Notes under the pieces: generated by a model
Seen by the model: the letters and a program-made list of their open reading frames with translations, nothing else
What the model was told of the DNA's origin: nothing
Database searches by the model: none
DNA from: Trypanosoma brucei
Lineage: Eukaryota
Direction of reading: 5' to 3'
Assembly: GCA_000002445.1 (NCBI GenBank)
Contig: CH464491.1
Coordinates: 1,024,001 to 1,088,000 of the forward strand
Length of the DNA: 64,000 nt
Made by a program: the position numbers and the translations under genes
Shown here: positions 46-21,721 of the stretch, one piece after another
Layout of the letters: the number at the start of each line of letters is the position of its first letter
How positions within the stretch are numbered: the first letter of the stretch is position 1

Positions 46-588
46 ATGTTCAAACAACTCTACAAACGTGACGAGAAGTTGCGCCTGTACAGGTCACTCA
101 TCAAAGGGGCGAGCCGATTCCCGCTGCGTTCCCGCAGGGATATTGTAACGGAAGAAGTACGTAGCAGCTTTCGTCACCCACTAAACGATAGCCTTACAAA
201 TGAGGAAGTCGACCGCAAGCTCGTGCTGGGGTGGGAACGGGCCGAGGCAATTAAGACATATGCGCAAAACATGTACTGGTTTCACTCGCGTGATGAGGTG
301 TCGAAGGAAATGATGCATCACTCGTTGGAGCGGGACCGCCAACGAGTACGGGAGATGGAAAGATGCAACACTGTTGGAGCGGCACCACGGAAAACACCTG
401 AGGTGACTGAGTTCAAGTCGTCGATGTACAACGTACATCCGGACTACTATGAAAAGATTGGGCAGAAACCACTGACGCACACAAGGGACATTTGGAGGGC
501 TCGAGGGCAGTATGGCTCCGATGTTGGTGGTCCGCGACAGAAATTTTTTGTGCGGCGTTTCAAGGCCCTGTTTCCCCAGGGTTGGTGA
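46..588 (+). CDS. LYR-motif (Complex1_LYR family) protein, about 180 aa; the reading frame is open to the window edge, so the 5' end may be incomplete
   Basis: N-terminus MFKQLYKRDEKLRLYRSLIKGASRFP carries the L-x-x-LYR-x-x-[LK] ... F signature of the LYRM family. The track ORF 10..588 starts at GTG; the first ATG is at 46. The protein is longer than typical LYRM proteins, so assignment is by motif only. Confidence 0.5.
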   Translation: MFKQLYKRDEKLRLYRSLIKGASRFPLRSRRDIVTEEVRSSFRHPLNDSLTNEEVDRKLVLGWERAEAIKTYAQNMYWFHSRDEVSKEMMHHSLERDRQRVREMERCNTVGAAPRKTPEVTEFKSSMYNVHPDYYEKIGQKPLTHTRDIWRARGQYGSDVGGPRQKFFVRRFKALFPQGW

Positions 589-1294
589 AGAAGTGCCGAT
601 GCTGGGTGGTGCTTTGTGAGCTGTGGCACTCGCTGCCACAGCCGCCATATACATTTTTGCAAAAGAACGCGTATATGTACATGCGTATATTGGCTGAAAA
701 GGATCGTGTGTTGCCACCCGCTTTAATGGGAGGTTCCATTGGCACCAGCCGCCTCAACAGGGCCCCAGCTTCTAACGAACCCCTGTTATGAGGTGAAGTG
801 AGGAGCCGGTAACATCTTATATACGGGAAAAGGCTGTCGCATATGCTTTAGACACGGCAGCTTATGGCACATGCGCCAATACCGTTGTTCTATGACTCCG
901 GCTCGCCCCTCTCGGTTACCAGCCGCGTGTCAGCGGCCTATTAGCATCGTCACGAGGGACAATGTGCTGCCAATTTTTGATACCAAAAGTATGGACCAGG
1001 CTGTACGTCAGTGGCCGATGCGGGGACGTTTCCCACAGGGGCACGGAAAAAGTTTTATCGGTTGTTGTGGGGCGTGCGTTATGGAAAAAAAAAGGTCAAT
1101 TGGATGAGATTGAAGCAACCACATTATCGTTGCAAGCGCTGCGAAATCACTCTCAGTTCGTTCCTTGCTTACGGTCCTCCCCGCCAACCAGTGGGGATGG
1201 CACCGCATACTCAGTCCTTCTTTAACTTACCCGCTTGTAATAGCAACAATAATAGCAAGTATTAGAAACGGTTGACACTCCCCTTGAGAGTTAG

Positions 1295-2290
1295 ATGAGC
1301 GTGCCTCGTTTGCGCGTCCCCGACCAGAACGACGAACAGTCATCCGCAAAACATTTTCCTGCAGATGACTGTCCAGCGAAGTCGTCAAGTGTAAGGACTA
1401 CGGCTGCTAACGGACAAAGTACAGCTCAATCAATCAATGTGAGTGCGCGCTTTTTGCCTTATGATGATATTTGCGGAATCGGACCAACACTTCATAGCAG
1501 CCCGACGGAGGAGAACGAGATGAACTGGTCTCACGAGCACGGCGCCAATAGGTTCCTATCGGATAGGGAAACGCATGGAACGCGCCGCCTTTGCTTCACA
1601 GGCGGCAGCAGTGGCGGTGGTACGCTCAGCGAGTCCCAAGAGACGACGGCGTCGGAGTTTGTGATGGAACTACGGGACGCCCTTAAGCAAACGATGGCGG
1701 AAGGCAACTCACCGACGGACTTGGAGGTTGACGGGAGTGCGGGCCCTGCCATTTGGATGCGCTTGTTTGAGAGGTGGCCCCTGGAGTTGGCCGCCTCGGG
1801 GTATGCGGAGTGGTGGTTGCGACACCCCAAGTGCGGTGAGGACGCTTCCCAGCTGTTCCAAATGTTCATCGATGGAATTGCGAGAGAGGAGTGCCGGCGT
1901 AACCCCCTTGACGGGGAAAAGGATGGAGAGGAACTGCGTGACGGTGTTCTTCAAGGTGCGCTTGTTATGCTTCAAGCTCTCTACGCTGACCCACCGCAGT
2001 CGCTTAGGGCGGCCTTCGGGACACCACTGTACCACCAACAGTTGTTCTTCCGTACCTGTCGCCTTGGTGCTCTCGGGGATGGACGGGAGTTGGCCCTCTG
2101 TCTTTCTCTTGCCGCTGCCATTGCGCAACGCATCGCAGGGAACAAACTGGCGATGCGCCACGACTTGAGCCGCTTCATTGGGAGAGTGCGCCGCAACTGG
2201 CAGGCTCTGCGGGAGAAGTGGTCAGACGAGGAAAAACTCGTCTTAGAGGTTGGAAAGGTGGAGGCTCTTCTTGCATTTGCCCTCGACTGA
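1295..2290 (+). CDS. hypothetical protein, 331 aa
   Basis: Long ATG-initiated ORF in the sense orientation of the cluster, with balanced non-repetitive composition. No motif recognised. Confidence 0.4.
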   Translation: MSVPRLRVPDQNDEQSSAKHFPADDCPAKSSSVRTTAANGQSTAQSINVSARFLPYDDICGIGPTLHSSPTEENEMNWSHEHGANRFLSDRETHGTRRLCFTGGSSGGGTLSESQETTASEFVMELRDALKQTMAEGNSPTDLEVDGSAGPAIWMRLFERWPLELAASGYAEWWLRHPKCGEDASQLFQMFIDGIAREECRRNPLDGEKDGEELRDGVLQGALVMLQALYADPPQSLRAAFGTPLYHQQLFFRTCRLGALGDGRELALCLSLAAAIAQRIAGNKLAMRHDLSRFIGRVRRNWQALREKWSDEEKLVLEVGKVEALLAFALD

Positions 2291-2547
2291 GGCTTAAGGT
2301 TGCGCTTCGCAAGAAGGTTCGTTTCGTTGCTTCCCACATCACGGCCCTTCCTTACTACATGCGCTCTCATCAGGGTGTCCGGCATTTGGGTGGCATGCTC
2401 AGCGCCATCTTCATTCCCTTCTTGTACTTAAGGTGTTCCGTTCATCCTAACCATTACCGCTTCATTCTGCAATGGAAAAGTGATGTTGAGTCTCCGGAGT
2501 TTTCTATTACCTTCTTTTCATCAGCTTGCTTTTAGATTCTGGCTGCG

Positions 2548-3420
2548 ATGTCGACAAAGCCAAAACCTTTAGTCATTTTGGTTGTGGGAATGGCAGGCAC
2601 CGGCAAGACAACGCTAGTGCACAGGCTGCAACACTACGCCGAGGAGAAAGGTAAAAAGACGTATTTCATAAATTTGGATCCGGCAGTTGCGGATGTTCCT
2701 TACGGCGCCAACATCGACATTCGTGACACAGTCAACTACAAGGAAGTTATAAAACAGTATCGACTGGGACCCAACGGTGCTATCATGACATCGTTGAACC
2801 TGTTTGCAACGAAGTTTCACCAAGTCATTGGTATTCTTGAAAAAAAGGAAGGTCTTGAGTGGATCGTTGTGGATACGCCTGGTCAAATCGAAGTTTTCAC
2901 TTGGTCAGCATCGGGGCAAATAATCGCCGAGTCCCTGGCGGCCACGTGGCCAACAACACTTTTGTTTGTCGCTGATACAGCCCGCTGCGCAAGTACACAG
3001 ACATTCATGAGCACCATGCTATATGCGAGCAGCATCATGCTGAAGCAGCAGCTCCCGCTCGTCCTTCTCTTTAATAAAACGGATGTCGTTTCTTCAGATG
3101 CCGCAGTGACTTGGATGAAGGACCCGAATGCGTTGGCGGAAGCGGTTAACAGCGGTACGGATGGGAGTTACGCAGGGAGTTTAGTCCAATCCCTCTCCCT
3201 TTTCACGCACGGCTTCTACGAAAGCATTCCTTTTGCCAGCGCATCTGCTGCGTCAGGAAAGGGCATAGAGGAATTGGAGGAGGCCCTCGTAGTTGCGAAA
3301 GAACAGTATTTAAGGGACCGCGCGCCGCGAGTCGGCGAAAGAGAAAAGTTGGCGAATGAGGACGCGATTGCCGCGGAAGATATGATTCGCGCGTACCGCG
3401 AGGACCGGAAGAAGGATTAA
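2548..3420 (+). CDS. GPN1: GPN-loop GTPase 1 (XAB1/Npa3 family)
   Basis: P-loop VVGMAGTGKTT near the N-terminus, the diagnostic GPN motif (YRLGPNGAI), a VDTPGQIE switch II-like segment, and NKTD (NKxD) guanine-specificity motif. Confidence 0.85.
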   Translation: MSTKPKPLVILVVGMAGTGKTTLVHRLQHYAEEKGKKTYFINLDPAVADVPYGANIDIRDTVNYKEVIKQYRLGPNGAIMTSLNLFATKFHQVIGILEKKEGLEWIVVDTPGQIEVFTWSASGQIIAESLAATWPTTLLFVADTARCASTQTFMSTMLYASSIMLKQQLPLVLLFNKTDVVSSDAAVTWMKDPNALAEAVNSGTDGSYAGSLVQSLSLFTHGFYESIPFASASAASGKGIEELEEALVVAKEQYLRDRAPRVGEREKLANEDAIAAEDMIRAYREDRKKD

Positions 3421-6400
3421 ACTACCCAGCTGCTAAGTCAATGCATGTGAAGTGGGGTATCGTTTAAGGTGTTTTCATACCACATCCCTCCCTTGAGTCT
3501 GTAAAGCTTATGTTCATTTTTTTTTTTAACTCGTTTCACTGCACAATTTTCCTGCGGCACAAGGCACGCCGCCTTTTCTCTTCTTTTTTTTTTCGTTTTG
3601 TCATAGTGCCGTCTCTCTGCAGTGGGAATGAAACATTACGAAGCCCAAAAAAGGTGGGAGCTGGTGACGGGCCTTCACGTCAAAGGCAAAGTGTGTTATT
3701 TCACTGAAGGTATAGAAAATCAAGGAATCGGGGAAAAGCAACCGCTTTTTATGGGAATTGGTTGGCGGGGTCCATTCGAGGTCACCTCAACTGCGGGGCA
3801 ATGCCGGGCGGCTGAAAGAGGACCGGTACATTAAATGGCGCTAGGCTTCGCGTCATGTTGGTCGAGTCTAGGGTCTCGCTATCGAATTCCAACACACCAC
3901 CACAACCCCACTAGGAACCAAACGCAGAAATGATGATTATTATTATTATTAAAAGTTCTTGACAAACATTTGGTCGAGAAAAAAAAAACGAACAACATTT
4001 AAACGTGTAATGCTGTCGAAGTCCCGAGTACGGTCACTACAGGTGAAAGGCGAGTTGCCTGTGATTCACATTGCACTAGCGGTCTCCACACACACACGAA
4101 CACGCAGAAAAAAAAATAGAACGCTGCGCCGCCATGGGCAGAAGCCGGTGTTGTTGTAAGTTTTCTGTAAGCATGCATAATGATAGGGCGTGTGGACATT
4201 TGTATATTCCTTTTTTTCCCCCACGCTTTTGCTGCACAGATAGCGCTGTGGTGGCACAGCTCATTCAAATGGCTTTCAGGAAGGTTAGGTTGGCCACGGT
4301 ACCGTTTCCCCCCTCCAATTTCGCCACCTGTGACATTTAAGCGCGCGGATGGGGGGCTGTCAGTGCTCTTACCGTAAGTAACTGCGGGTCCTCCTCCCCT
4401 CCCTGGCCGTGTGCTCATCTTGGGTGCCTCATCAGCCCTGCTTTTCCGACAATGCGGCACCTGAGTGCATGGCGCTGGTGCATCATCCAACCATCCTTTT
4501 CCACTTCGTTCCTTTCCGCTTGGGGGCTTTGCAATGGCCGCGTTAGCTCCAAGATGAAGTTTCCTGGCGTGCTGCCATAGTCCCGTCTGTGCTCAGCAGG
4601 GCTTTCCACATTAATTCGACATCATATGTTTTTACCGAAAGGCCACTCAGGGGCGTTGCCGTTGCTTCCTCATGTTGTTCTCTTTGCTTCTTTCCTTCTA
4701 CTGTCTCCTCCGCCCTCCCTAAGACCTATTGAGCTGGTCGGTGAATAACCACGCCGCGGCAGCACTCGATCACTGCGGACTCGGTGCTATTTAAAGTGAC
4801 TGATTTTGTAAACTTCCTGCCACACCCCCCTCGATGCGCCCTGAGCCTACCCTTTTCACCCGTGGGGTCGAGCACACTGTTATCCCGTGTCAGGAATATG
4901 GCAACCGTGCTCCATTCGCGGCTCTTCTTCGCAATCGCCACTCTGTAGGTTTCCCTTCAGTCTCTCCCGTGTTGGCGACACCTCATTTATCAGGAGGAGT
5001 TTCCAATCCGCCTGAACTGTTAGTCGTGCTATGAGTCACCGTTTTCAATTTTTCCGCAAGCCCCTTTTCGGGACTCCGGTGCTCATGTCAAATCACTTCC
5101 CTTTCTTTACATAACACGCGGCCGACGGGGCTGTGGCGTCATCGTGTGTCGCTCCGCTTTGCGCCCGGTGTCAAGGAAATGCAGCCGCAGCTGAGGATTC
5201 CGGACGACACAGGAATGCCTTGCAACCCTTCCCTGAGGTGCCATGGGCTTGTGGTCGTATGTTGTTTTGAGAGATCGCCTGCTTTCGCTCGGCCAATTTT
5301 CCAGCTTCATTCCGCACCACTGATACGACCGCCTTGCAAATGGTCATCTTGGTGGTGTTAAACAGCTTCCGGACTTCGTTCTGCCTTTTCCCGCTCACCG
5401 AACCTCGGGAGCGCCCGTGCGCCACATTGAATTACACAAGCCCGAGTACTGACGGGCGGATGCGGCACTGTCCGTGACAGTCATGTTTACAAGGAGGTTT
5501 TGGGCGCCTTTTTGCCCTGTGCCAGCACTGGTGCCCGCACGCGCTTTTCGGCCACATCGTTTGCTGCTGAGTTTCATCCTGACGATAAAAAATGTTTCGG
5601 GGCATATGACCGTGCCTCGGATTCTGGCAGTGCTCCTATTCCGGGGCGGCCGCATTGTGGTTAGTTCGTTGGGAATTATGACGGGCCGGCTGCTCACCAC
5701 TTCTTCCCCTCGACCGCCTCACCGTGTGCACCGGTTTCGGCGCTTATTAGGGGCGATCGCTCTTCGGTATCGCCCAAAATGTTTCGTGGTGCGGGCACGG
5801 AATGATTCAGAGATAGTTTTTCCTGCCCTGCTGAACTTCCCCTTCTTCGGTGCAGGCTTATAGTTACCGCGGTTGCCTCTGCGCGTGCTTGGCCCTAATC
5901 CGGCTTCGAATGTAGCGTGTGCCTCTTTGTGCTTCTGCTTTATGTCTCCCACCAAAATATCAACTTTTATATGTTAGGTGTGTTTTTGTGCAGTTGTTTC
6001 TTCCACTGCAATCTCATCTGCTATTGCACTGTCTTTCCAAACAACGTGGTGGGAGAAATAAGCCGCATAGAAATCACCGCATTCTTTTTACTGATTGTGA
6101 AAATCACCCTTCCATACGCGGCTCGGGATTTCATCCTCCACGCGACTGTCTTTCATTGTTTCCAGTACCGTATTTAGCACCTTTTCAATTGGCACTGCTT
6201 CTGCACGATGGTTGCATGCCCATATTCAGGTGTCCCTTTAATTCTGTATTTTTCCGTGTTGCCGAAGATTATCATTTCTGCAGTGGACTAACTGCCTAAA
6301 CTCACCAGTTCATCTGTTGAAACTTTTCAGTCCTTGTTGTATATCCCTATTTTTTGCGGCGTATGAGCCCTCCTCCATCCGTCTGTTGCGTTTGCTTTTA

Positions 6401-8218
6401 TACCCACCCATGGAGGGCAATTTTGTGCACACTCTGGGACCAGCGTCCAAGGAGCTTTAAGTGTGGAGTACACCTTGATTTTTGGTGTCGGAGCACCATC
6501 CCTCCACTGAATTCAGCCATTCAAGTATTGGATTGTTTCGCGGACATCACCGGCTTACTATGCTTGAAAAGCGCCCTCTTTTAGCGTTTGACATGGGGCG
6601 GTATTCCGTCGTCCTCTTGTTTGCCGGTTTTCAAACAAATATCAGTCGTGCTTTTTTGAGCATGTCTTGTTTGTTCGAGTCCGAGGAAACCACAGCAATG
6701 ATTTGAACTGATTCAGCTTGCGCGCTTTCCGTCTTCCTCCCTTTCAGGTAGAGACATGAGAATCGCCTAAGAGCGACGCCGTAGTTTATCTTTTAGTGGA
6801 CGATTCCGTAGTGGAAGGCTGTAAACGCTTTCTTCCGTGGAGCACCGTTCAGCTAACACTACGGCATTGAGCCTCTCTAAACTTGTTCTTTCTGATTTTG
6901 TCGTTTGGTGAGCATGCTTTTCAATCCTTCTTTCAATGGGTGCAGTGTGGCCCGCGGGCTTTTGGGTCTTTGCATCGTTGGCCATTTTTCCTCGTCAACA
7001 TGAGGCCTTGTGGGTTCCAGATGCCTAATCCAAGTGCTGTGTGCCCCGTCTTTTCCTCCAGCGCTTGCGTATAGCATCTTAGCGGCTGTCGCGCAAACAC
7101 TCTTTCTCCGCTGCGGCGCACCTCCCAGTTTGTTTTCGTCCGAATCCGTCGCTTTGAGGATCGGATTCCTGGTAAATAAACTATCGTTGGGTCCTGGGGT
7201 CTTATTCAGTTCCGTGCTCAACGTTTCCATCGCTCTAAGAAATAGGATGCAGCCTAACGCCGACACCCGAAGAAACCCACGCGTCAATCCCGCGTTCGTC
7301 GAACTCTATAGTCGTTGTCATGATCTTTCTTGTTCAGTGAGGCGGGGAGTTGCTTATCCACCATGTTGGATGTGATATCTACTTTGAACCACCCCATCAC
7401 TCGAGCAACGTAGCTGCGACCCCACTCAATTAAGCCCCATCAAAGAGTTTATAAACACTGCTGCAATTAAGGAACTGTTTTCCTTCGATCCGATAGCACT
7501 CAGAAATTCTAAAACAGAATTAGCGCTGCATATTCATCGTTGGAAACCTGACTATTGTAGCTGAAGCGGCTCTCAGAGGCAGTTTTTTTTTCACTCTACC
7601 AAGTGCCACTCTTCGGATGACACCGACCGCGGTGCCGTCTGGCGCCAGCGGTTGGGATGATTCAACGCCTTTAGCTGATTTGTTCTGCTTAAAGAATGGT
7701 ACTATGGTCCCTCTTGGCTGCTCAGGGAATTTGTTCAACCTTTGGAAGCGGCTGTTAAACTAAGGTAAGAACCACCTTTAACGCTCCCCGGTATGAATTC
7801 CGTTGCATCCAGTCGCCGTCCACACTATATAATTTCCCCGTTACTTTCGATTCGCCACGAAGACGCCATGAATACACAACTGCGCGACTTTAAGGGCATT
7901 AGTGGAACGATTCGTATACTTGTCTGCCAAAGCCCGCAGCCGCCGCCCTTTCGTCGGTGGGTGACTGGTCATTACACTGGAATGGGGGCGGATGGCGGTC
8001 ACAACGCAAATACTGATTTTAGCAGCGCTCAGGTGTTCTTCAGGGTGGATTGTTTCGAGGCGTCCTGCCTCCCTGTCCCTAGAGCTGTTTCGGTTAGCGG
8101 ACTCTTTCTTATTTCGGTGAAGATAGTTCTCTTGGTCGACTTCCTATACTGGTTCATTCTGCTTTCAGGGGTTATCAGTTCTGCTGCTCTATCGAAGGTC
8201 GTTCGGCAGCGGTTGCCG

Positions 8219-8230
8219 TTAGAGTTTCCC
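8219..8230. repeat. Target-site duplication, left copy (TTAGAGTTTCCC)
   Basis: Exact 12-nt direct repeat of 8736..8747, immediately flanking the retroposon. ingi/RIME insertions characteristically generate 12-bp target-site duplications. Confidence 0.75.
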
Positions 8231-8735
8231 CCTGGCGATGCCGGCCACCTCAACGTGGTGCCAGGGTCCAGTACCCCGTATCATCGGGGGAAGCCAAGAG
8301 CCAGCAGCGTTCCTTTCATGGGGAACACTGCTGTGCTCCGGCTACGGCATCATACAGCACAGGGATCAACAGCGTCTTGCTGGGACACTGTTTTTCATTT
8401 GTCGGTCCCTGGGCACGTGCCAGCGTGCCATCAGCAGTATCATCCGCGCTAAGATGCTGCTGTCCGGTGATGTGGAACTCCAAAAAAAAGAATTGCCAAT
8501 TGGCATCTTTTGGAGAGTCCGGAGTGGGGGGCTTCTCGCTCCATCTGCTGTATTCCGTTCATGTGCGGAAATACAACAAAAAATTATAGAGGGTGTGTCA
8601 GGATGAATGAAAAAGGGAGACTCTGCCACAGTCGCCAGACCGATAGCATCTCAGGGCTCTACGGTGATGGCTGATGGCCGCGCCAGTGGGGGGAAACTCT
8701 CATGAAGGCACGAAGAAAATTTCAAAAAAAAAAAA
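8231..8735 (+). mobile_element. RIME-like non-autonomous non-LTR retroposon (ingi/RIME family), about 505 bp, with a 3' A12 tail
   Basis: 5' end CCTGGCGATGCCGGCCACCTCAACGTGGTGCCAGGGTCCAGTACCCCGTATCATCGGGGGAAGCCAAGAGCCAGCAGCG matches the roughly 77-79 nt conserved 5' signature of trypanosomatid retroposons (ingi/RIME/L1Tc/NARTc/SIDER) as recalled from the literature. Length of about 500 bp, a terminal poly(A) at 8724-8735, and an exact 12-bp direct repeat of flanking DNA are all visible in the sequence. Confidence 0.7.
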
Positions 8736-8747
8736 TTAGAGTTTCCC
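8736..8747. repeat. Target-site duplication, right copy (TTAGAGTTTCCC)
   Basis: Exact copy of 8219..8230, lying directly after the A12 tail. Confidence 0.75.
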
Positions 8748-11700
8748 GACTCTTTCAAATTTACCTCATCGCAATGCTTAAGACATGCGTCCTCTGTGGG
8801 AAGATATTTTAATCTAGCTACTCTTTGCCAGACCGGGGTTTCTTCATTAGCAATTGCTAAGACCAGTTCCATTTGCCAATCCACTATGAGCTCACCGCCC
8901 CTCTGAAGCACAGGACTCTCAGCGGCACGGCGATGGGCCCGTTTCCACTTCGGTGCCTGGTGGGTTTTGATTCCCGCTCGGTTGCTCCTGCTTCTCACTG
9001 ATTACGTTAAGACTCTTGGGGGAAACGCACGGAGGTCACAGCGAGACGTCGGTTGTTTGAAAACACCGGCGCAACGATTGCGCTTTCTAAAAGTCCTGTT
9101 GTCTGCGGACTCCTGAAAACAGTTAATCTATCTCGAGGGAGTGCTGAAAATCCTCCGCCTTCTGTTTTGGGGCGGGCCGCCCCAGTGCGTTGGTAGTGAA
9201 TGAGACTGTGTGCCGTACCCTCCCCAGCTTTCATGGACGCCTCCTGCGCCGGATCGGAACCCGCCGCGCCCACGTGGGCCGCTGTCGGCAAGGGCGGCTG
9301 TTCTCCATCTAACGGTGCTTTCGCGTTCCATTGACTTCGCCGGAGGATGGGGTATTGTGGTTCATGGGAATCCCAGCCACGAAGGGAAGGGGGCTCGAGA
9401 AACAGGGAGCGGCGGAGCTGTGTGTTTGCAGTTCCGGGGGCGGTTGCTTAAAGGGTGGGTCTTTCCTCCACGTTATCCCTTTCCAAAAAGCCGCTGCCTG
9501 GCCGCCGCGGAGGTTACCGGTTCAGGGTCAGCGAGAGGTTGGCTTTTGGCTTCGTTTTCACTAGCCGGCTGCCGGTGCCAGTTCATCGGATGGGTTGCAG
9601 TATCACGTGAAAGGACGTTCTCTCGCGTGCGGGAAATCGTTGTGCGAAAAGGTCGGGGGAATGAACCTTGCCAGTGGTATGCCCTCTACCGCTGCCGTCC
9701 TTGTGGTCTTGCAATGCTTTGACCTGTGGGCACGGTTGTTTTCGTTTGGTTATTGATGACATATGCCCACTTTCATCAATCCGCTTCGAGGTGTGTATGG
9801 TTCGCGCGTGGAACGGCTTTGGCTTCTACATTTTTTTAAAAAGTTTGACACTGTCTTCTCAAGTTACTTGGATTTCGTATTTGGGAAAGACGCTGGTGAT
9901 ATATTGTGGTTGTTGTTATACTGGTTGGAGATCTAATGCTCAAAGTAACTATTAATTATTACAACTCGATAAAAAAAAATGTCCCGAGGGTGCTAAAGGA
10001 TATGTATAAATGATGAAGCTTTCAAACGATTTCCCTCTGACTTTGTTCGGCCGGTTGTTCAGGCGTTTTGTAAGATTTTCATTGTTGCGAACAACTATGC
10101 TTGCTTTCCTATTGGTCTATGAGATGTGAAGCTATGGGGATACCTTTGCTTGGGATTAATAAAAAAGACTACTATTCCGTCGCAAGATTCTATTTTTTTC
10201 CCCCCTCTCTTTTGCGTGTATTTTAGCCCGGTAGGTTGTTTTTCTGGTGGTCATATATGATTTTATCTCATGGTGGTGTCGCAACCGATTTTGCTTAAAT
10301 CATATGGTTCATATTTCTTAGTGAAATATTTCTTTTGTTTAATACAGGAATACAGGCCAGTCCGTGGCATGTAGCGCATGCACTGATGAGGTCGCCGTTG
10401 TTCCGCCTCCGTGATATTGTGGAGGTAAGAGTTTCCCAAAATGTCTTCGAACCCTCAATGTAGTTAATGAATATTTGGGAACGGTGCGTTGTTGCTCCTT
10501 AGGGTGGATAAGGGCCACCTGGCGAATGCTTAGCGGTTTATCTTAAGGGCCTGAGGTTGGGGATGGGGACACACATCTAATTTGTAAGTGTTTTACACAC
10601 TTTTCTGATTTTGCTTTTGAGGGAAAATTGTTTGCGTCCCTCAGTGGGCAAAAAGGCGCTTAAACTCATTAGGCCACCATATTTTAAATATTGTGATCAA
10701 TGATGTTAAATATAGGTAAACTACTGTGCCCTCGCTTGACTCAAGGAGTTCAACCAACGATGATTCCACTGCCAATGACAAATGCATGTTCGAAACAAGA
10801 GGGGATGCGGTCGTTTTTCCGCGGGCGGCGTGCAAAAAAAAAAAAAAGGACGGCGAAGTGCAGTAACAACAAAACACTTTATAAAAATAATGCCACTCTC
10901 AGCGACACGTGCTGCTAATAGAGATGGTGCTACCCCTTGGATAATTATCCGTTAGCATGGCCACTGTGCCCACTTGTTGTCATGACTCTGTTGGGCTGTC
11001 ATCTTAACTGTTTGCCTTACCGATAGGTGCCCGTGAGGCATATCCGTAACAAGCAGTTGCTTATTCCTTTTCGTCTGGGTTACTTTCCAACAAACAAAAT
11101 TTGGTTGTACAATGCGCATCGTGAGGCTTCAGCAGAGGAACGACATCATTTCCTATTGAGGATTGTATGCTTGTACATAAAATATGTGAGTGCGTTTGAT
11201 TTTTTTTAACCTTTAAGGACAAATTAGTAGCATCCGTAGCAAAGGAGTGAATGTACAAGTGTCGGTGTGAATATAATTTCTCGTTATTCACATCGCTTTT
11301 TTGGGATGACTAAACCGCTGCGTGTATTGGCGTATCGGGTTATGCTGATATAGTTTTGATGTAATGCGGTCTAGTTTGTTGGACACATGTTATTGTGTTG
11401 GACTCGAATTTGGTGGTTTACTGTTTCGGTTCTTTGAATATTTTCATTGTGGTCCGTACAAAAGTTTTGGTCAGTTATATGTGGAGGGTTGTTTAAAAAT
11501 ATTTTCTCTTCGTTACTTTTTTGTTTTATTTACAACTGCTATAATCCTATTTCCCCATTTTACCTCTTGATAGAGGTATTTTCAAAGCAATTATTAACGG
11601 CGAATACACGACATCACCATCGATTGTTGACGGGCGAGTGTTTACACTTGGGGTATACTACTAAGTGAGGCCGAGTTTGATTATTTCCCCATGTGCTGTG

Positions 11701-13042
11701 ACGTTTCTATTGTGTTAGTTTTTACACTGGTCATATACTTAAATATTATACATTATATATATATACATATATTAAATTTTGAACCTGCGTCGCATCTTCT
11801 TCAGGAAAAAATTTTCTTACTCCCAATTCTGATAGTTATTTGCATTAATCGACCAGGCGTTTGTTGTGGAGACTGTTCTTTGGTCCTTGTTAATGGATCT
11901 GTGGTCAGGTGTGCGCGTGCATGCTATCTAAAATTTGATGTTTGCATGAATCTTGGGGGTCATATATTGACGAAGATAAAGATTCTGTTCATGGAATTGA
12001 GGTACGTAATTTTTGTGCTTTTCCGATCCGGTTATTACCAAATGACAGAAACACTGTTGTATTGCCACTTCGCGTAGGGGCGTTCAATTTCTAAATTTAT
12101 ATGTTTTTGTATCTGGTCCCGTGCCTAGCCAAAATTATCCGACGCTTCCGCTGATAATGATGTTGACCATTTCCTGTGTGGAATGGAAAGTATTCTCTTA
12201 ATGCTCAGCCGTCCTAGGGCCCCACCGTACTTTTCTAAAAAAAAGAAATGATGGTGACGAGGTGTTGTAGGTTGCGTATGAGGCGAATCGGTTGAGTGCA
12301 AAGACCTGTTGTCACTTGAGGAAGACGGTTTTATGCGTGGCTTTCCTTTAAACTGTTGGGAGGTTTGAGGCAGTCGATGCGATACAGAGCCTTCTGGGTG
12401 CTTGTTTGTTGTGAATATATTTTTTAATTTGTGTTGGATTGACACGATGGGTCGCCACGGTGCCAAGTGATGTTCCTTCTACTTTTGTGTTAGGAAAATA
12501 TCCTCTGTTAACTACATGTCTACCGTTGACTTTATTAATGGTGTGATGCCTAGCGTCGTCCTAATTGTTCTCTGTGGGTGATGGTTGGAAGAGGGTAAAT
12601 ATGTACGCATAGTTTCGTCGTTGAATTTGTTTTCCACTGTACGTGACAACAAGTGTACTGTTTTCTCTGATGCAAGGTGAGCAAACTCGGCTGTGCTTTT
12701 TATATGTTTTAGCTTCTTCAACATATACATATATTTAAGGTAAGTACACCTGGAAGAACGTACAATACTTTGCGTATTTTCTTTTTTAATGACTATTCCG
12801 ATCTTGACATACAACTTGTTTGTCTTTACTTGCTACGTTGTTGCGGCGGAACCATCGGGAATGTGGCATATTCTTTTTTACACCCTTTGTTTAGCTAAAA
12901 GTGTTGTGTCGTTATCCTATGTCTTGTTCTTTTGCCTTCTCTACCTGTTCACGCAGTTTATTAGACGGAAAGGAAAGAGAAGGATCACACATATTTGTTG
13001 GGCACCGCAAGAATAGGAGCATACGCTGAAGAGAAAAGTAAG

Positions 13043-15658
13043 ATGTCCACGATCGAACGGGATACTCTCCCAAGCGATCCAACACCGCACCACTACAAAG
13101 TCAGTATTGTTCCTGACTTCGAAACGTTCAAGTTCACCGGTCATGTTGACATAAAGATAACCGCCGAAAAACCTCAACAGAAAATCACTCTCAACTATAG
13201 TGATTTAACGTTTGTGAAAGTAAGGGTTACGCCAGGGGGGAGTGCATCGGAAACAGAGGAACTTCCCGCGGAATCCATAAGCCTCGACAAAACCGGGATG
13301 AAGGCAACGTTTTCTTTGCACAAGGCATTTCAAGGAGAGGCAACACTCTCGATTGATTACACGGGAATCATAAATGACAAACTGGCAGGATTTTACAGGA
13401 GCAAATACACTGTTAACGGAAAGGAGTCGTATATGGGGACAACACAGTTTGAAGCTGTTGACGCACGCCAGGCAATCCCCTGCTGGGATGAGCCTGCAGT
13501 GAAAGCTGTGTTTGAAATAATTATAACTGCTCCTTCGCACCTAATGGTGCTATCCAACACTCCATCTTACAAGAAGGAGGTGGTTGATGATAAGACACGT
13601 TGGTTCTTTGAGCCCACGCCCAAAATGTCGACTTATCTTCTCGCGTGGACGATAGGTGTGTTCGAGTGTATTGAGAGGCGCATCCAGAAGGTACACAAAG
13701 GAGCAGGTGGTCAAACTGAAGAGACCATTATACGCGTGTTTACTCCTGAAGGTAAAAAGTCAAAAGCTTCTTTTGCTCTGGATGTGGCTTCTAAAGTGTT
13801 GCCATTGTATGAAGAGTTCTTCGGATCAAATTACGTGCTTCCAAAAGTTGACCTTTTGGCAATTCCTGACTTTGCCGCCGGGGCAATGGAAAATTGGGGG
13901 CTTATAACATATCGTGAAACAGCCCTACTATGTGATGCCGAATCAAGTGCGGCTCAGAGGTACTATGTCGCTCTAGTGGTTGCCCATGAACTGGCCCACC
14001 AGTGGTTTGGAAACCTCGTGACCATGCAATGGTGGAAGGAGCTCTGGCTTAACGAATCGTTTGCCACGTACATGGAGTACCGGGCGGTGGATAAGTTGTT
14101 CCCAGAGTGGCGTGTCTTCACGCAGTTCGTCCACGATGAGGTTGCTCGAGCCTTTCAACTGGATTCGATGCGTAGTTCCCATCCCGTTGAAGTGGATGTC
14201 AAATACGCTAAGGAGATCGACGACATTTTTGATGCCATTAGTTACAGCAAGGGTGGGAGCATCATTCGCATGGCAGTTAATTTCATCGGAGAGGAGGCAT
14301 TCCAAAAGGGAATGTCGGAGTATTTGAAGCACTTCGCCTATGGTAATGCAACAACGAAGGATCTGTGGAATTTTCTTGGAAATGCTGCAGGCAAACCCTT
14401 GGCCCCTATACTGGAGTACTGGACGGGGCGGCAAGGTTATCCTTACCTTATTGTTACGTCGTCACCTGACAAAAAGACTTTGAACATAACTCAAAAGCGC
14501 TTTCTAGCTACAGGTGACGTCACCGCCGACGAGGATGAAACAGTGTGGAAGGTACCTTTGCTTATCTCGACTCCGGAAGACGGGGTTCAGCGTTATATTC
14601 TTGAGAAACGGGAAAACCCAATACCGGTAAAGTATAACTCGTGGATAAAGGTAAACAGTGAGCAATCGGCCTTCTGCCGTGTCCACTATCAAGGCAACGG
14701 TTTGCTCGAAGGTTTGCTTCCCGCCATTGCTTCGAAGAACCTCTCTGATATAGACCGATTTTCTATTATTTCCGACTACCACGCCTTTGCTCGTGCCGGT
14801 TACTGCAGCACCGTCGACGTGCTCAAGATTCTTTCTTCTTATGTTGACGAAGACGATTATACTGTGTGGTGCTCCGTCGTTGGCTTTGAGAAAGAGATAC
14901 GGATGCTGGTGTCCAGCCAGGGTCGAAGTGCTGTTGATTCACTGAATGCTTTCTGTCGCAACTTGTACTCGAATGCCATGAAACGACTCGGCTACGCGCA
15001 GAAGCCTGGCGACGATAATCGTTTGACTCAACTGCGCAGCGTTCTCTTCGACAGACTCGTAACATCTGAGGATAAGGAGGCCGTTGCCTATGCTTGCAAG
15101 CTTTATGCGGAACGGCAAAAGGTGCCAATTCCTTCGGACTTGCGGTACACTGTGTACGCTACGCACGTTAAATTAAACGGCGAGCCCGCGTTTCAGGAGG
15201 TGAAGCAACTTGCTGAGGTTACTGTGGACGCGATGGAGCGGACTCATTACCTTCGTGCGCTTGCATCTTCCGAAGTTGATGGTGTGGTGAGTCAGCTCTT
15301 TCAATACTCTCTCTCCGAAAAAGTTCGGAGCCAGGACGTTTTGGCCATTCTTGGCGCACTGGCCAGCAACGCTGCGAGGGTTAAAGCATACGCCGAAGAA
15401 CTGAAGCAGATGTGGCCAAGGTTGGGGAAGGAGCTTCCCGGACTTATACTCGGGAGGGCGCTAAAATATTTGGAAAATGGTGCTGATGCAGCGGTGGCCG
15501 ATGAAATGGAACAGTTCTGGAGCCACCTTGCTGATGAAGCTAAATTCGGGATGACCCGCAGCTTCCAACAGGGTGTGGAGGGACTCCGCAACAACGCAAA
15601 ATGGGCGGCGCGAGACGTGAAGACTGTGGTCGAGTTTCTTTCGGTTGCAGCGTTATAG
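13043..15658 (+). CDS. M1-family zinc aminopeptidase (aminopeptidase N / puromycin-sensitive type), 871 aa
   Basis: GAMEN exopeptidase motif (AAGAMENWGLITYRE) and the zinc-binding HELAHQWFGNLVTMQWWKELWLNESFA (HExxH-x18-E) motif. The track ORF begins at TTG 12995; the first ATG is at 13043 (MSTIERD...). Confidence 0.85.
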   Translation: MSTIERDTLPSDPTPHHYKVSIVPDFETFKFTGHVDIKITAEKPQQKITLNYSDLTFVKVRVTPGGSASETEELPAESISLDKTGMKATFSLHKAFQGEATLSIDYTGIINDKLAGFYRSKYTVNGKESYMGTTQFEAVDARQAIPCWDEPAVKAVFEIIITAPSHLMVLSNTPSYKKEVVDDKTRWFFEPTPKMSTYLLAWTIGVFECIERRIQKVHKGAGGQTEETIIRVFTPEGKKSKASFALDVASKVLPLYEEFFGSNYVLPKVDLLAIPDFAAGAMENWGLITYRETALLCDAESSAAQRYYVALVVAHELAHQWFGNLVTMQWWKELWLNESFATYMEYRAVDKLFPEWRVFTQFVHDEVARAFQLDSMRSSHPVEVDVKYAKEIDDIFDAISYSKGGSIIRMAVNFIGEEAFQKGMSEYLKHFAYGNATTKDLWNFLGNAAGKPLAPILEYWTGRQGYPYLIVTSSPDKKTLNITQKRFLATGDVTADEDETVWKVPLLISTPEDGVQRYILEKRENPIPVKYNSWIKVNSEQSAFCRVHYQGNGLLEGLLPAIASKNLSDIDRFSIISDYHAFARAGYCSTVDVLKILSSYVDEDDYTVWCSVVGFEKEIRMLVSSQGRSAVDSLNAFCRNLYSNAMKRLGYAQKPGDDNRLTQLRSVLFDRLVTSEDKEAVAYACKLYAERQKVPIPSDLRYTVYATHVKLNGEPAFQEVKQLAEVTVDAMERTHYLRALASSEVDGVVSQLFQYSLSEKVRSQDVLAILGALASNAARVKAYAEELKQMWPRLGKELPGLILGRALKYLENGADAAVADEMEQFWSHLADEAKFGMTRSFQQGVEGLRNNAKWAARDVKTVVEFLSVAAL

Positions 15659-16229
15659 CTTTTCTTTCGCCTTCATATACGTTATTACCATTAGAATTGG
15701 CTGTTGCTAAATTAGTGGATGCAGCTGTTGGCTAAAATTAGGTGGGAAAATGAGTAAAAAACTTTAGGGATAGAAGTGAATGTAGTAAAAGGTGGCTCAA
15801 TCATGGGTAGGAAAGTAAAAACGAGTTGGATTTTGATGAAGGGGGAATATCGTCGAGGAATGGTCCATTCTTCCTCGTCGCGATGATTTCGTAGTGGGCA
15901 CGTGCCACAGTGCTTCTGGCGGGAGAGTGGGTTTGTCAGGAGGTGCGGCGATAAAGGAATAGTTGTATTGGGTGTATACACGTATACTTGCACACTTGTT
16001 TCACACCAACGCTTCATCACTTTTAGGTTGTCGACATTTTTTCGCTTTAGGTAAGTATCCATATTACCTTTAGTGTTCTGCTTTACCTGTGATGCTCATC
16101 TACACCTTGCATCCACTTTTCTGTCACTTCAGTGTGTTGGTACTGTGCTGACCTATATTTGTTTTACTTTGCCTCTCTGTTTGCAAACCTGGGGCGCTGG
16201 AGCGAAGAAATAGGGCGGAGGCGTTGACC

Positions 16230-17537
16230 ATGACACACAACAGGAGCGGGGCTGTTCGAAGGAAAGTCGTTCAACACGACTTTTATGATTCAGCTGACCA
16301 GGTTGGTGGAGTGGTGTTGCTGAACAACCCTACCAACGGCTCCTGGGAATATGATGAGTACCTTCGGCTGCTCACAACCAAAAGGTACTCTCGTATTCCT
16401 TCGTGGGAAGCACATTCCACTGCGCAGTGCTACTTTGTCTGCGCTGACGGTGTATATCCTAAACTTCAGTCATACGTCAAGGAGCGGCAGGTGAGCCATC
16501 CGCATCTTCGGTTGTTTCAATTTTTTCCTCTATGTGATGCTGTCATCGGTGATATGGACTCTTATGTCACTTCTTACGAAAAGGATGGTTGTGAAAGGCC
16601 TTCATCAACTCCAGAGGGCGGTTACGGCACTGTGGACGATATCCCTGTTGAGGTACTGGACACGATCCATCACAGGTGCCGCTCTGCGGCCGCGCTTTTT
16701 CGGGAGGTGGATGGGAGTGTGCCGGACACGCCACTGAATGGATGGAAAATGTTGCATGAAGAGCATTCCCACCCGTTACTTCGTCCGCTTTGGCTGCATA
16801 TCCAGTGCCAGATTACGACGGACTTCAAAAAGGCGCTGACACTCCTGAAACGGCTGCGCAAGCGGTACCCTGACGAGAACGCTGTCGTGTTACCTCCTGT
16901 TCTGCGTTCACCTGGTGCCGCGCGTATACTGGAAACCGGTGGCGGTGTTGTGGACCAAAGAAACTGCGGGTGCGACAACGACCCGATCCAGGAGCGTGAG
17001 CTGTGCGTTGCGGCCAGCCAGGTTGAAGCATTACTTCTGCCCACCGTTGTCGCTGTCGGTGCCTTCGGTGGTCGCTTTGACCACGAGGTGGGAGCCATCT
17101 CTACGATGCTTTCTGAGAGTCATGATGCACATATAGTGCTTATAAATTTGTTTAATACGGTGTTTGCGTGTCAGGGAGGTGGGTGGACACAGATTGTGCG
17201 GCAACCCGAGTATGAAGACAAGACTTGCGGTCTTGTAAACTACGGAAGAATGACTGAGTGCGAGACGAGTGGTTTGCTCTGGAATGTTGTGAAGGGCAGG
17301 GGGAGGCCAAGTGTTACAAACGATTTCGTTTTCGACTTTGGGGCGTTTATTTCCGTCTGCAACATTGTTCGCCGCGAAGTTATAACGGTTGATTTGCGGT
17401 GCCTTTTAACGAGTGTGGGGGAGTCACCTGCGGATGCGACGACCGCTACAGGCGCTTCTGATTGCGAAGCGCAACGCGGTCGTGGCCCACCTGTAGTGTT
17501 CTCCATACTTCGGCGGCAAAAAAAGGAGGGGGGCTAG
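16230..17537 (+). CDS. thiamine pyrophosphokinase-like protein (extended, 435 aa)
   Basis: TPK catalytic motifs VCADG...IGDMDSY (compare CADGGAN...GDxDS), QITTDFKKAL (compare DQDSTDFxKAL) and GAFGGRFDHEVGAI (compare LGGRFDQ). Large insertions relative to the roughly 250-aa canonical enzymes. The track ORF starts at TTG 16224; the first ATG is at 16230. Confidence 0.7.
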   Translation: MTHNRSGAVRRKVVQHDFYDSADQVGGVVLLNNPTNGSWEYDEYLRLLTTKRYSRIPSWEAHSTAQCYFVCADGVYPKLQSYVKERQVSHPHLRLFQFFPLCDAVIGDMDSYVTSYEKDGCERPSSTPEGGYGTVDDIPVEVLDTIHHRCRSAAALFREVDGSVPDTPLNGWKMLHEEHSHPLLRPLWLHIQCQITTDFKKALTLLKRLRKRYPDENAVVLPPVLRSPGAARILETGGGVVDQRNCGCDNDPIQERELCVAASQVEALLLPTVVAVGAFGGRFDHEVGAISTMLSESHDAHIVLINLFNTVFACQGGGWTQIVRQPEYEDKTCGLVNYGRMTECETSGLLWNVVKGRGRPSVTNDFVFDFGAFISVCNIVRREVITVDLRCLLTSVGESPADATTATGASDCEAQRGRGPPVVFSILRRQKKEGG

Positions 17538-17967
17538 GTGCGTGTTTTCTTTGAGCTCTATTCGTCCTTGTTTTATTTATTCATCGTTTTCCTTGTGTTT
17601 GGTTACCCTGCTGTACACGAGAGTCCCACCAACATTGTACTGATATTTCCATCTTTTTTAGCGTTTCATTCTTAAACGCACCGTTTCTGGAGTGCGTATC
17701 CACGGCAATATAAGAAAACTTCACGAGTGCTAATGGGTGATCCTATCGATGATTTATTGCACCATTTTTAACGGCCATTTATTCGGGTATTCTGATCTTT
17801 TCTGTAAGTGTGTAATCTACTGCTGTCAACCGTTCTTAGGTGATAACGTCTGCGATTGTCTTACAGTATACCCATGTACATTTACTTTCAACATTCCCTT
17901 GTATATGTGTTACGTGCCTGTGTATGCGACATCCATACCATACATAAAACAGAAAGGAACCTGAAAC

Positions 17968-18789: not shown

Positions 18790-19037
18790 GTTGGTCTCTT
18801 TCTGCTGACTTTTTTTTTTACGAAGAAGCAAGGATTTTGGTTCCATTCATACTAATTTATTTTACGTTTTATAATCTATTGATTTATGTTGATCGAGACC
18901 CGTCACTATCACTAACATCAGCAAGGCAAGTGTGCACACTTGCAGTTCCCCCTTGTCGATAGTGTATAAAAGATACGCATTTCCTCCCCCGAAAACAATG
19001 TCTTCCGTTTAAAAAGTGGTTTGTTTAGCCGTCCCCA

Positions 19038-21459: not shown

Positions 21460-21567
21460 GTACGCTTAATGGAGGAGCCGCCTCTCACTAACACCACTTT
21501 GTTAGTACGTGACGTGTTTTAAGTGATGGAGCATCGTTGATGTTTTATCAAAGATACTATCTTAACT

Positions 21568-21569
<2 letters not shown>

Positions 21570-21598
<29 letters not shown>
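21570..21598. repeat. (TA)n microsatellite of about 14 units. The paralogous tract at 24549-24571 is 3 units shorter.
   Basis: Direct reading of the sequence. The length polymorphism between otherwise identical repeat units indicates replication slippage. Confidence 0.9.
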
Positions 21599-21602
<4 letters not shown>

Positions 21603-21693
21603 TAGTTTATATCTTTTTTACATTAACAAGATTATTTTATTTTAATTATTTATTTTTTTTTGATTTTCCTTTAACTGAAGGCATGTGCGGGTA

Positions 21694-21721
21694 AGGCAGC
21701 ATAAACTATTTTGGACTGCCT
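21694..21721 (+). promoter_or_regulatory. Conserved 3'-flank hairpin of the transporter genes (copy 1); candidate cis-regulatory stem-loop. Identical elements lie at 24667-24694 and 27598-27625.
   Basis: A-GGCAG-(16-nt loop)-CTGCC-T stem-loop about 235 nt downstream of each stop codon. It is preserved in the otherwise diverged flank of copy 3. Confidence 0.45.

What the first reader, a model, noticed from the sequence alone, without database searches (positions are those of the whole stretch)
8219..8747. Intact-looking RIME-type retroposon with a perfect 12-bp target-site duplication
Three hallmarks of a retrotransposition event are visible directly in the sequence. First, the 505-bp insert begins with CCTGGCGATGCCGGCCACCTCAACGTGGTGCCAGGGTCCAGTACCCCGTATCATCGGGGG..., which matches the conserved 5' signature shared by ingi/RIME/L1Tc/NARTc/SIDER elements as recalled from the literature. 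Second, it ends in a pure A12 tail. Third, it is bracketed by an exact direct repeat, TTAGAGTTTCCC. A 12-bp target-site duplication is the specific product of the ingi-encoded endonuclease. The perfect TSD and uninterrupted poly(A) suggest a relatively recent insertion. The element is in the sense orientation of the gene cluster, so its 5' region (an internal promoter in the L1Tc family) and its transcripts (a known siRNA source in T. brucei) could influence downstream expression.
Basis: partly seen in the sequence, partly recalled or inferred. Interest (0 to 1): 0.6.

Follow-up and report, generated by a model that had tools for sequence, protein, structure and literature searches.

The report
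Ordinary RIME retroposon with empty-site proof
This is a normal, full-length copy of RIME, the well-known 0.5-kb non-autonomous retroposon of Trypanosoma brucei; a related strain still carries the uninterrupted target site, so it is a real but ordinary insertion.

Summary
An exact 12-bp direct repeat (TTAGAGTTTCCC, 8219-8230 and 8736-8747) brackets a ~505-bp insert that ends in A12.

The insert is a genuine RIME:
- Its first 77 nt match the published L1Tc Pr77 oligonucleotide (61/77).
- It is 92-96% identical over its full length to two other 0.5-kb copies in T. b. gambiense, each with its own 12-bp duplication.
- Its two halves are the two ends of a 5.25-kb ingi element that encodes endonuclease, reverse transcriptase and RNase H.

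The window is very probably T. b. brucei TREU927 chromosome 11. The same insertion, with the same duplication, is present in T. b. gambiense DAL972 and in a T. b. equiperdum assembly.

So the event is real and polymorphic within Trypanozoon, but it is older than the common ancestor of three of the four genomes compared, not strain-specific.

Two small corrections:
- The canonical first base is 8230, so the boundary is ambiguous by 1 nt.
- The pure A12 tail is seen only in this strain.

The suggested promoter effect on neighbouring genes has no support in T. brucei. The family is textbook knowledge, so interest is low.

The parts
8219..8230 (+). Upstream copy of the target-site duplication, TTAGAGTTTCCC. 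Its last C is also the canonical first base of the element.
   Evidence: A single copy of this 12-mer is present at the empty orthologous site in T. equiperdum OVI.
8230..8735 (+). Full-length RIME retroposon: 506 nt counted from the canonical CCC start, or 505 nt from 8231. GC is 53.2%, against 46.3% for the window.
   Evidence: 95.7% and about 93% identity (blastn) over its full length to independent copies in T. b. gambiense (L003, L002). Orthologous copies are present in L005 and L006. GC agrees with the 53.8% published for RIME (PMC2323293).
8230..8308 (+). The '77-79-bp signature' / Pr77 hallmark of the ingi/L1Tc clade. Helices P1, P2, P3 and P4 of an HDV-like ribozyme can be drawn on it.
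   Evidence: 61/77 identity to the published L1Tc R77 oligonucleotide. Identical across the T. brucei copies apart from single substitutions. Helix check, using my own helix assignment. No Rfam hit.
8254..8257 (+). CGTG, the downstream promoter element motif of Pr77, at +25 to +28.
   Evidence: motif and position as published for L1Tc in PMC4748587. Function in T. brucei is not shown.
8230..8477 (+). 5' half (RIME A) = the first 248 nt of ingi.
   Evidence: 97.6% identity to nt 1-248 of the 5.25-kb ingi in L004.
8482..8489 (+). Internal A8 run at the junction of the two halves. Its length varies between copies (A6 to A16).
8482..8723 (+). 3' half (RIME B) = the last ~250 nt of ingi.
   Evidence: 90.3% identity to the 3' end of the ingi in L004.
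8724..8735 (+). Poly(A) tail, A12.
   Evidence: The orthologous copies read A10TA.
8736..8747 (+). Downstream copy of the target-site duplication, TTAGAGTTTCCC.
8238..8606 (+). 122-codon ORF inside the element, probably not a functional gene. It served as the handle for finding other copies.
   Evidence: No Pfam family. Homologues at 77-96% identity on at least 6 different large contigs of DAL972 and T. b. equiperdum, annotated 'hypothetical protein, unlikely' or 'T. brucei spp.-specific protein'.

Best explanation
This is a full-length copy of RIME, the 0.5-kb non-autonomous partner of the ingi LINE of Trypanosoma brucei. It was inserted by target-primed reverse transcription into an ORF-free stretch of a + strand polycistronic unit on chromosome 11.

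Inferred mechanism, from what is established for the ingi clade:
1. A polyadenylated RIME RNA was used in trans by the ingi-encoded endonuclease and reverse transcriptase.
2. The endonuclease made two single-strand nicks 12 bp apart in the target ...GCCG/TTAGAGTTTCCC/GACTC....
3. The cDNA was primed at the first nick on the poly(A) tail.
4. Repair of the staggered ends duplicated the 12 bp.

The insertion happened on one haplotype lineage of the T. brucei group. It came after that lineage separated from the haplotype now seen in T. equiperdum OVI, which is empty. It came before the common ancestor of the TREU927, DAL972 and T. b. equiperdum (GCA_003543875.1) haplotypes, which are all occupied.

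Today the copy is a passive passenger. It is presumably co-transcribed in sense orientation with the gene cluster. As a family member it probably contributes to, and is targeted by, the ingi/RIME siRNA pool. No effect on neighbouring genes is shown.

Shown here: identity, architecture, duplication, empty site, distribution among four genomes. Inferred: the enzymology, transcription, and siRNA involvement of this particular copy.
For: - Exact 12-bp direct repeat and A12 tail.
- 5' end matches the published L1Tc Pr77 sequence at 61/77, and 35/39 over the first 39 nt. The best score elsewhere in the window is at background.
- Two independent full-length copies in DAL972, at 95.7% and about 93% identity. 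Each has its own 12-bp duplication (TGAAAAAAGATT, TTTAATTATTTA) and an A tail.
- The element's nt 1-248 and ~253-504 are the two ends of a 5,254-bp element in L004. That element's internal ORFs hit Exo_endo_phos_2, RVT_1, RNase_H and a C2H2 zinc finger. This is the published definition of RIME versus ingi (PMC2323293, PMC3447711).
- A 12-bp duplication is the characteristic length for Tbingi/TbRIME (PMC3820030).
- ORF homologues are dispersed on at least 6 large contigs.
- The same insertion with the same duplication is at the orthologous site in DAL972 and T. b. equiperdum.
- A precise empty site with a single TTAGAGTTTCCC lies in a gap-free stretch of the orthologous T. equiperdum OVI contig.
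- The OVI haplotype is 2.7-2.8% diverged in the flanks, against 0.28-0.40% among the occupied haplotypes. Its coding differences are mostly synonymous (9 of 13), so they are real divergence.
Against: Nothing contradicts the identification. The limits are these:
- The empty site comes from a fragmented short-read scaffold assembly. Its upstream part (before an N gap about 750 bp away) contains questionable joins. OVI could be heterozygous, with only the empty allele assembled.
- The conserved upstream endonuclease-recognition motif could not be checked, because the papers that define it are not held.
- No Rfam model matches the 5' end, and its nested fold is not better than shuffles (z = -0.61). 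The ribozyme reading therefore rests on analogy.
- Transcription and siRNA production of this copy were not tested.
Confidence: 0.96

Rival explanations
1. A complete 5.25-kb ingi inserted here, and its central 4.7 kb was later deleted in place. On this view the 0.5-kb structure arose locally, not by retrotransposition of a RIME RNA.
For: RIME is by definition ingi minus its core (PMC2323293), so a local deletion would give a similar product with the same duplication.
Against: The junction between the halves (…GATGTGGAAC-TCC-A(n)-GAATTGCC…) is the same in the independent copies L002 and L003. Those copies sit at other loci with different duplications. The deletion therefore happened once, in an ancestor of the family, and the short form then spread by retrotransposition. 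None of the four orthologous loci carries a long form.
Confidence: 0.02
2. The OVI 'empty site' is not ancestral. It is either a secondary precise loss by recombination between the two 12-bp repeats, or an assembly collapse. On this view the insertion is fixed and older than all four genomes.
For: Recombination between the duplications would leave exactly one copy, which cannot be told apart from an ancestral empty site. The OVI assembly is fragmented and shows odd joins nearby.
Against: The empty allele sits on the haplotype that is the outgroup to the three occupied ones: 126 private substitutions against 4-7 for each of the others. That is what an ancestral empty state predicts. The junction lies in a gap-free stretch with its own flanking SNPs. 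Twelve base pairs is very short for homologous recombination. This rival changes only the dating, not the identity of the element.
Confidence: 0.1
3. The element is functionally active at this locus. Either its Pr77 drives transcription of downstream sequence, or its HDV-like ribozyme cleaves the polycistronic precursor, and this alters expression of the aminopeptidase gene.
For: The Pr77 hallmark is intact, with CGTG at +25 to +28 and CCACC at +16 to +20. P1 and P3 are identical to the active L1Tc ribozyme, and P2 is kept through a compensatory A-U to U-A change. The element is in sense orientation in the cluster. Ribozyme activity of ingi/RIME is mentioned in the literature, but only as unpublished work (PMC3185411, PMC4035085).
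Against: Reporter assays with RIME A, the first 500 bp of ingi and the first 55 bp gave no transcription in T. brucei (PMC1874656, discussion). The next gene starts 4.3 kb downstream. The locus functions in a strain without the element (the OVI gene is intact). There is no Rfam match.
Confidence: 0.1
4. The flanking repeat is a chance match, and the sequence is an old degenerate remnant (SIDER/DIRE-like), not a discrete insertion.
For: None beyond the general fact that short two-copy repeats can arise by chance.
Against: The 12-mer is exact and placed precisely at both ends. The element is full length and 92-96% identical to other copies, whereas TbSIDERs are 8-18% diverged from their consensus (PMC2323293). 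The empty site exists.
Confidence: 0.01

Closest known systems
TbRIME (ribosomal inserted mobile element) of Trypanosoma brucei, ingi4 subclade; Hasan et al. 1984, Bringaud et al. 2004
   Same: Length of about 0.5 kb. 79-bp 5' signature. The two halves equal the two ends of ingi. A-rich junction, poly(A) tail, 12-bp target-site duplication. GC about 53%. No coding capacity for endonuclease or reverse transcriptase. Dispersed in T. brucei-group genomes.
   Different: Nothing of substance. This copy has three private substitutions (element nt 140, 160, 334) and an A8 internal run.
Tbingi, the 5.25-kb autonomous LINE of T. brucei
   Same: The first 248 nt and last ~250 nt are shared at 97.6% and 90.3% identity. 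Same 5' start (CCCTGGCG) and A tail.
   Different: [quoted passage not shown]
L1Tc/NARTc of Trypanosoma cruzi (Pr77 promoter / L1TcRz HDV-like ribozyme)
   Same: The first 77 nt are 79% identical. P1 and P3 are identical, and the DPE motif is at the same position.
   Different: Beyond nt ~40 the sequences diverge and P4 is a different hairpin. NARTc arose by a 3' deletion, not an internal one (PMC2323293). Promoter activity is shown in T. cruzi but was not detected for RIME/ingi in T. brucei (PMC1874656).
LINE1/Alu-type autonomous/non-autonomous retroposon pairs
   Same: The short element is mobilised in trans by the LINE's machinery, with target-primed reverse transcription, a poly(A) tail and target-site duplications.
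   Different: RIME derives from its LINE partner by internal deletion, not from a small cellular RNA (PMC2323293). The duplication has a fixed length of 12 bp.

Membership tests
TbRIME (ingi-clade non-autonomous retroposon) | Conserved 77-79-bp signature at the 5' end | tested here: met
   61/77 identity to the published L1Tc R77 oligonucleotide, starting at window 8230. Near-identical over nt 1-79 to five other T. brucei-group copies.
TbRIME (ingi-clade non-autonomous retroposon) | About 0.5 kb, made of the 5' ~250 bp and 3' ~250 bp of ingi with the central ~4.7 kb missing | tested here: met
   Element nt 1-248 and ~253-504 match the two ends of a 5,254-bp element in L004 that encodes Exo_endo_phos_2, RVT_1 and RNase_H. 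Definition taken from PMC2323293 and PMC3447711.
TbRIME (ingi-clade non-autonomous retroposon) | 3' poly(A) tail | tested here: met
   A12 at 8724-8735. A10TA in the orthologues; A7 to A12 in the paralogues.
TbRIME (ingi-clade non-autonomous retroposon) | 12-bp target-site duplication | tested here: met
   TTAGAGTTTCCC on both sides. A single copy at the empty OVI site. The two paralogous copies also have 12-bp duplications. The 12-bp length is stated in PMC3820030. The boundary is ambiguous by 1 nt because of the shared C.
TbRIME (ingi-clade non-autonomous retroposon) | No coding capacity for the retrotransposition enzymes | tested here: met
   The internal 122-codon ORF has no Pfam family. 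tblastn with the ingi ORFs finds nothing in the window.
TbRIME (ingi-clade non-autonomous retroposon) | Dispersed, multi-copy, with low divergence between copies (published median 4% from consensus) | tested here: met
   ORF homologues on at least 6 different large contigs. Pairwise identity to the paralogues is 92-96%.
TbRIME (ingi-clade non-autonomous retroposon) | Conserved motif upstream of the insertion site (presumed endonuclease recognition site of the ingi4 subclade) | tested here: inconclusive
   The motif itself could not be retrieved. At the five T. brucei-group insertion sites available, a G-rich run lies 6-12 nt upstream of the 12 nt that precede CCCTGG, and position -13 is C in 4 of 5. 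That is too few sites for a test.
HDV-like self-cleaving ribozymes (L1TcRz type) | Nested double-pseudoknot fold (P1, P1.1, P2, P3, P4) with cleavage 5' of +1 | tested here: inconclusive
   P1 (7 bp) and P3 (4 bp) are identical to L1Tc. P2 is kept with one compensatory change. P4 is a different 5-bp hairpin (my own helix assignment by analogy). No Rfam HDV-family hit even at E<=10. The nested fold has z = -0.61. P1.1 and the catalytic C were not assigned.
HDV-like self-cleaving ribozymes (L1TcRz type) | Demonstrated self-cleavage | not testable with these tools
   For ingi/RIME this is cited only as 'manuscript in preparation' (PMC3185411, PMC4035085).

The most novel reading that the evidence does not exclude
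The 9.6-kb ORF-free gap between the GPN GTPase and aminopeptidase genes may be a conserved, retroposon-accumulating boundary inside a head-to-tail gene cluster, for example an internal Pol II termination/re-initiation region. Ingi-clade elements have landed there independently in T. brucei and in T. vivax. In T. brucei the RIME is in sense orientation, with its 3' end 4,308 bp from the aminopeptidase ATG. In T. vivax a full-length Tvingi-like element is in antisense orientation, with its 5' end 4,261 bp from the ATG. In addition, the T. brucei copy is still presence/absence polymorphic and shows gene-conversion-like exchange with paralogous copies.
Probability: 0.2. Interest if true: 0.3.

Novelty: already known. 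Interest (0 to 1): 0.1.

Why it matters
It matters little beyond correct annotation. RIME/ingi are the most abundant and longest-known transposable elements of T. brucei, and the copies in the TREU927 reference genome have been catalogued in the literature.

The one modestly useful result is that this copy is a clean presence/absence polymorphism within Trypanozoon. It is occupied in TREU927, DAL972 and one T. b. equiperdum assembly, and empty in T. equiperdum OVI. The flanks are well defined, so it could serve as a lineage marker of the kind RIME-based typing already uses.

Its orthologous copies diverge about six times faster than the flanks. That is a small, concrete example of sequence exchange among dispersed retroposon copies.

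Tried and rejected
- Rfam at gathering threshold on the whole window, and at E<=10 on 8100-8900: no relevant family. The weak miRNA/snoRNA rows are chance.
- Minimum-free-energy fold of nt 1-79: not better than shuffles. This is uninformative for a pseudoknotted ribozyme.
- Other copies inside the window: none.
- Exact-sequence look-ups of four window proteins and of the TREU927 aminopeptidase record: no contigs. The orthologous loci were reached through cluster members instead.
- Whether the RIME interrupts a gene: the 219-codon ORF 7793-8452 and the 206-codon frame restored in the in-silico empty site have no Pfam family. TREU927 has consecutive protein accessions for the two flanking genes. 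Rejected as a gene disruption. In particular this is not an RHS hot-spot insertion.
- ingi-derived coding remnants (DIRE) in the window: none.
- Tandem repeats in the gap: none.
- Nucleotide conservation between T. brucei and T. vivax in the 4.3 kb upstream of the aminopeptidase: none.
- Papers defining the upstream insertion motif (Bringaud 2004, 2009) and the original ingi paper: not held.
- An apparent 6-nt match suggesting that the reversed RIME in the OVI scaffold came from this locus: coincidental, because its flank is different.

Full report
**Observation.** The sequence is as described. TTAGAGTTTCCC lies at 8219-8230 and again at 8736-8747. These are the only two exact copies in the window. 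Between them are 505 bp that begin CCTGGCGATGCCGGCC... and end in A12 at 8724-8735. The insert is single-copy in the window, so all comparisons needed outside sequence.

**Where the window comes from.** All ORFs of at least 200 codons but one lie on the + strand. They encode a GPN-loop GTPase (2548-3420), an M1 aminopeptidase (13043-15658), thiamin pyrophosphokinase, two RPS4 genes, three tandem nucleoside transporters and adenylosuccinate synthetase. The GTPase is identical to XP_828437 and the aminopeptidase is 871/871 identical to XP_828438 of T. b. brucei TREU927, on the 5.26-Mb chromosome. The window is therefore very probably TREU927 chromosome 11. The element sits in a 9.6-kb stretch (3421-13042) without convincing ORFs.

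**Family identity.**
- *5' signature.* Heras et al. 2007 print the 77-nt L1Tc Pr77 oligonucleotide (PMC1874656). It aligns to window 8230-8306 at 61/77, and at 35/39 over the first 39 nt. The rest of the window scores at background.
- *Dispersed copies.* The 122-codon ORF inside the element finds homologues at 77-96% identity on many large contigs of T. b. gambiense DAL972 and T. b. equiperdum, and in a TREU927 expression-site clone.
- *Full-length paralogues.* DNA fetched around three of those hits gave two full-length 0.5-kb copies in DAL972: L003 at 95.7% and L002 at about 93% identity.
- *An ingi.* The third locus, L004, holds a 5,254-bp element. The element's nt 1-248 form its 5' end (97.6% identity) and nt ~253-504 form its 3' end (90.3%). 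The 4.75-kb interior encodes an endonuclease (Exo_endo_phos_2), a reverse transcriptase (RVT_1), RNase H and a C2H2 zinc finger.

This is the published definition: RIME (0.5 kb) is ingi (5.25 kb) without its central 4.7 kb (PMC2323293, PMC3447711). The junction between the halves is the same in all short copies, so the short form spread as such. The element's GC content (53.2%) matches the 53.8% published for RIME.

**Target-site duplication.** L003 and L002 carry their own 12-bp duplications, TGAAAAAAGATT and TTTAATTATTTA, directly before CCCTGGCG and after the A tail. PMC3820030 states that 12 bp is the conserved duplication length of Tbingi/TbRIME. In all other copies the element starts CCCTGGCG. 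The published positions of CCACC (+16 to +20) and the CGTG element (+25 to +28) fit only with +1 at window 8230.

**Occupied and empty orthologous sites.** Cluster members of the aminopeptidase gave the orthologous loci of three further genomes.
- *Occupied.* T. b. gambiense DAL972 (L005) and T. b. equiperdum GCA_003543875.1 (L006) carry the same element at the same position, between the same two TTAGAGTTTCCC copies. Their tail reads A10TA.
- *Empty.* In T. equiperdum OVI (L007) the alignment passes from window 8230 straight to 8736 with a 12-nt overlap. The contig reads ...GGTCGCCGTTAGAGTTTCCCGACTCTTTC..., with one copy of the 12-mer and no insert, in a gap-free stretch. Two SNPs within 141 nt show that it is an independent haplotype.

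**Dating.** Over about 5 kb of flank, the three occupied haplotypes differ by 0.28-0.40%. The OVI haplotype differs from each of them by 2.7-2.8%, with 126 private substitutions. Its 13 differences in the aminopeptidase gene are 9 synonymous and 4 non-synonymous, 10 of them at third codon positions, so the divergence is real and not assembly error. The simplest reading is that the insertion occurred on the lineage leading to the occupied haplotypes, after it split from the OVI-type haplotype and before their common ancestor. It is polymorphic within Trypanozoon but not a strain-specific recent event. The uninterrupted A12 cannot be used as evidence of youth, because two of three orthologues have an interrupted tail.

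**Mechanism and function.** The insertion mechanism is inferred from the ingi-clade literature, and the anatomy fits it completely. The steps are trans-mobilisation of a polyadenylated RIME RNA by ingi-encoded enzymes, two nicks 12 bp apart, and target-primed reverse transcription. Present-day activity is a different matter.
- The Pr77 hallmark is intact, and HDV-like helices can be drawn on it. P1 and P3 are identical to L1Tc, P2 is kept through a compensatory change, and P4 is a different hairpin (my own assignment).
- Rfam has no match, and the nested fold is unremarkable.
- Ribozyme activity of ingi/RIME is cited only as unpublished work.
- Promoter assays with RIME A and the ingi 5' end were negative in T. 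brucei (PMC1874656).
- The ingi/RIME/RHS group supplies 52% of small-RNA reads in procyclic T. brucei (PMC3447711). Membership of that pool is likely for this copy but untested.
- The nearest downstream gene is 4.3 kb away and is intact in the strain that lacks the element. An effect on expression is speculative.

**Rivals.**
- Local deletion of a resident ingi is disfavoured by the shared junction.
- Chance repeats are excluded by the empty site.
- Secondary precise loss or assembly collapse in OVI cannot be fully excluded. It would change only the dating.

**Verdict.** This is a correctly recognised, ordinary member of a textbook retroposon family in a reference genome. Novelty: already known. 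Interest: low.

Noticed in passing
window 3421-13042; L008 (T. vivax) 278-10000: There is a 9.6-kb stretch without convincing ORFs inside an otherwise dense + strand gene cluster. It has no Pfam hits, no tandem repeats, no Rfam hits and no ingi coding remnants. T. vivax has a similarly long gap upstream of the orthologous aminopeptidase. That gap contains an independent full-length Tvingi-like element on the opposite strand (L008 641-5740). Its 5' end is 4,261 bp from the ATG, compared with 4,308 bp for the RIME 3' end here. No nucleotide conservation between the two species was detected in that 4.3 kb.
   Followed up: partly
window 8231-8735 versus L005 5192-5695 and L006 5171-5673: The orthologous RIME copies differ about six times more than their flanks: 12/503 against 20/5006 substitutions versus DAL972, Fisher p = 1e-5. 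The DAL972-specific changes cluster at element nt 253-300, and every one matches a state present in paralogous RIME/ingi copies, which looks like an ectopic gene-conversion tract. The TREU927- and equiperdum-specific changes are mostly private.
   Followed up: partly
L007 (T. equiperdum OVI, CZPT02001941.1) 4953-15805 versus window 7472-18789: The OVI haplotype of this chromosome 11 region is 2.7-2.8% diverged in non-coding flanks. TREU927, DAL972 and the other T. b. equiperdum assembly differ among themselves by only 0.3-0.4%. The two 'equiperdum' assemblies therefore carry very different haplotypes here.
   Followed up: partly
L001 14862-14928; L007 1-4942; window 7403-7681: The OVI contig carrying the GTPase gene (L001) ends at window position 7419, joined to 67 nt of reversed RIME interior (nt 207-140). 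The scaffolded upstream part of L007 holds a VSG gene, a reversed RIME interrupted by an N gap, and an 80%-identical paralogue of window 7403-7681. These are probably repeat-induced assembly joins, but a second, reversed RIME near 7404-7419 in OVI cannot be excluded.
   Followed up: partly
window 17968-19859; L006 14926-18954: RPS4 gene copy number varies. There are two tandem copies in the window and in DAL972, and at least four in the T. b. equiperdum assembly.
   Followed up: no
window 20152-27424: Three tandem nucleoside-transporter genes (435-440 aa) with a repeat period of about 2,975 bp. T. vivax also has at least three at the syntenic position.
   Followed up: no
window 8185-8218; L002, L003, L004, L007 insertion sites: At the five T. 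brucei-group RIME/ingi insertion sites available, a G-rich run (GGnnG) lies 6-12 nt upstream of the 12 nt that precede the element, and position -13 is C in four of five. This may reflect the published endonuclease recognition pattern, which could not be retrieved.
   Followed up: partly
window 8482-8489 and the homologous position in other copies: The internal A run at the junction of the two RIME halves is length-hypervariable. It is A8 here and in L006, A6 in the DAL972 orthologue and in L003, and A16 in L002.
   Followed up: no
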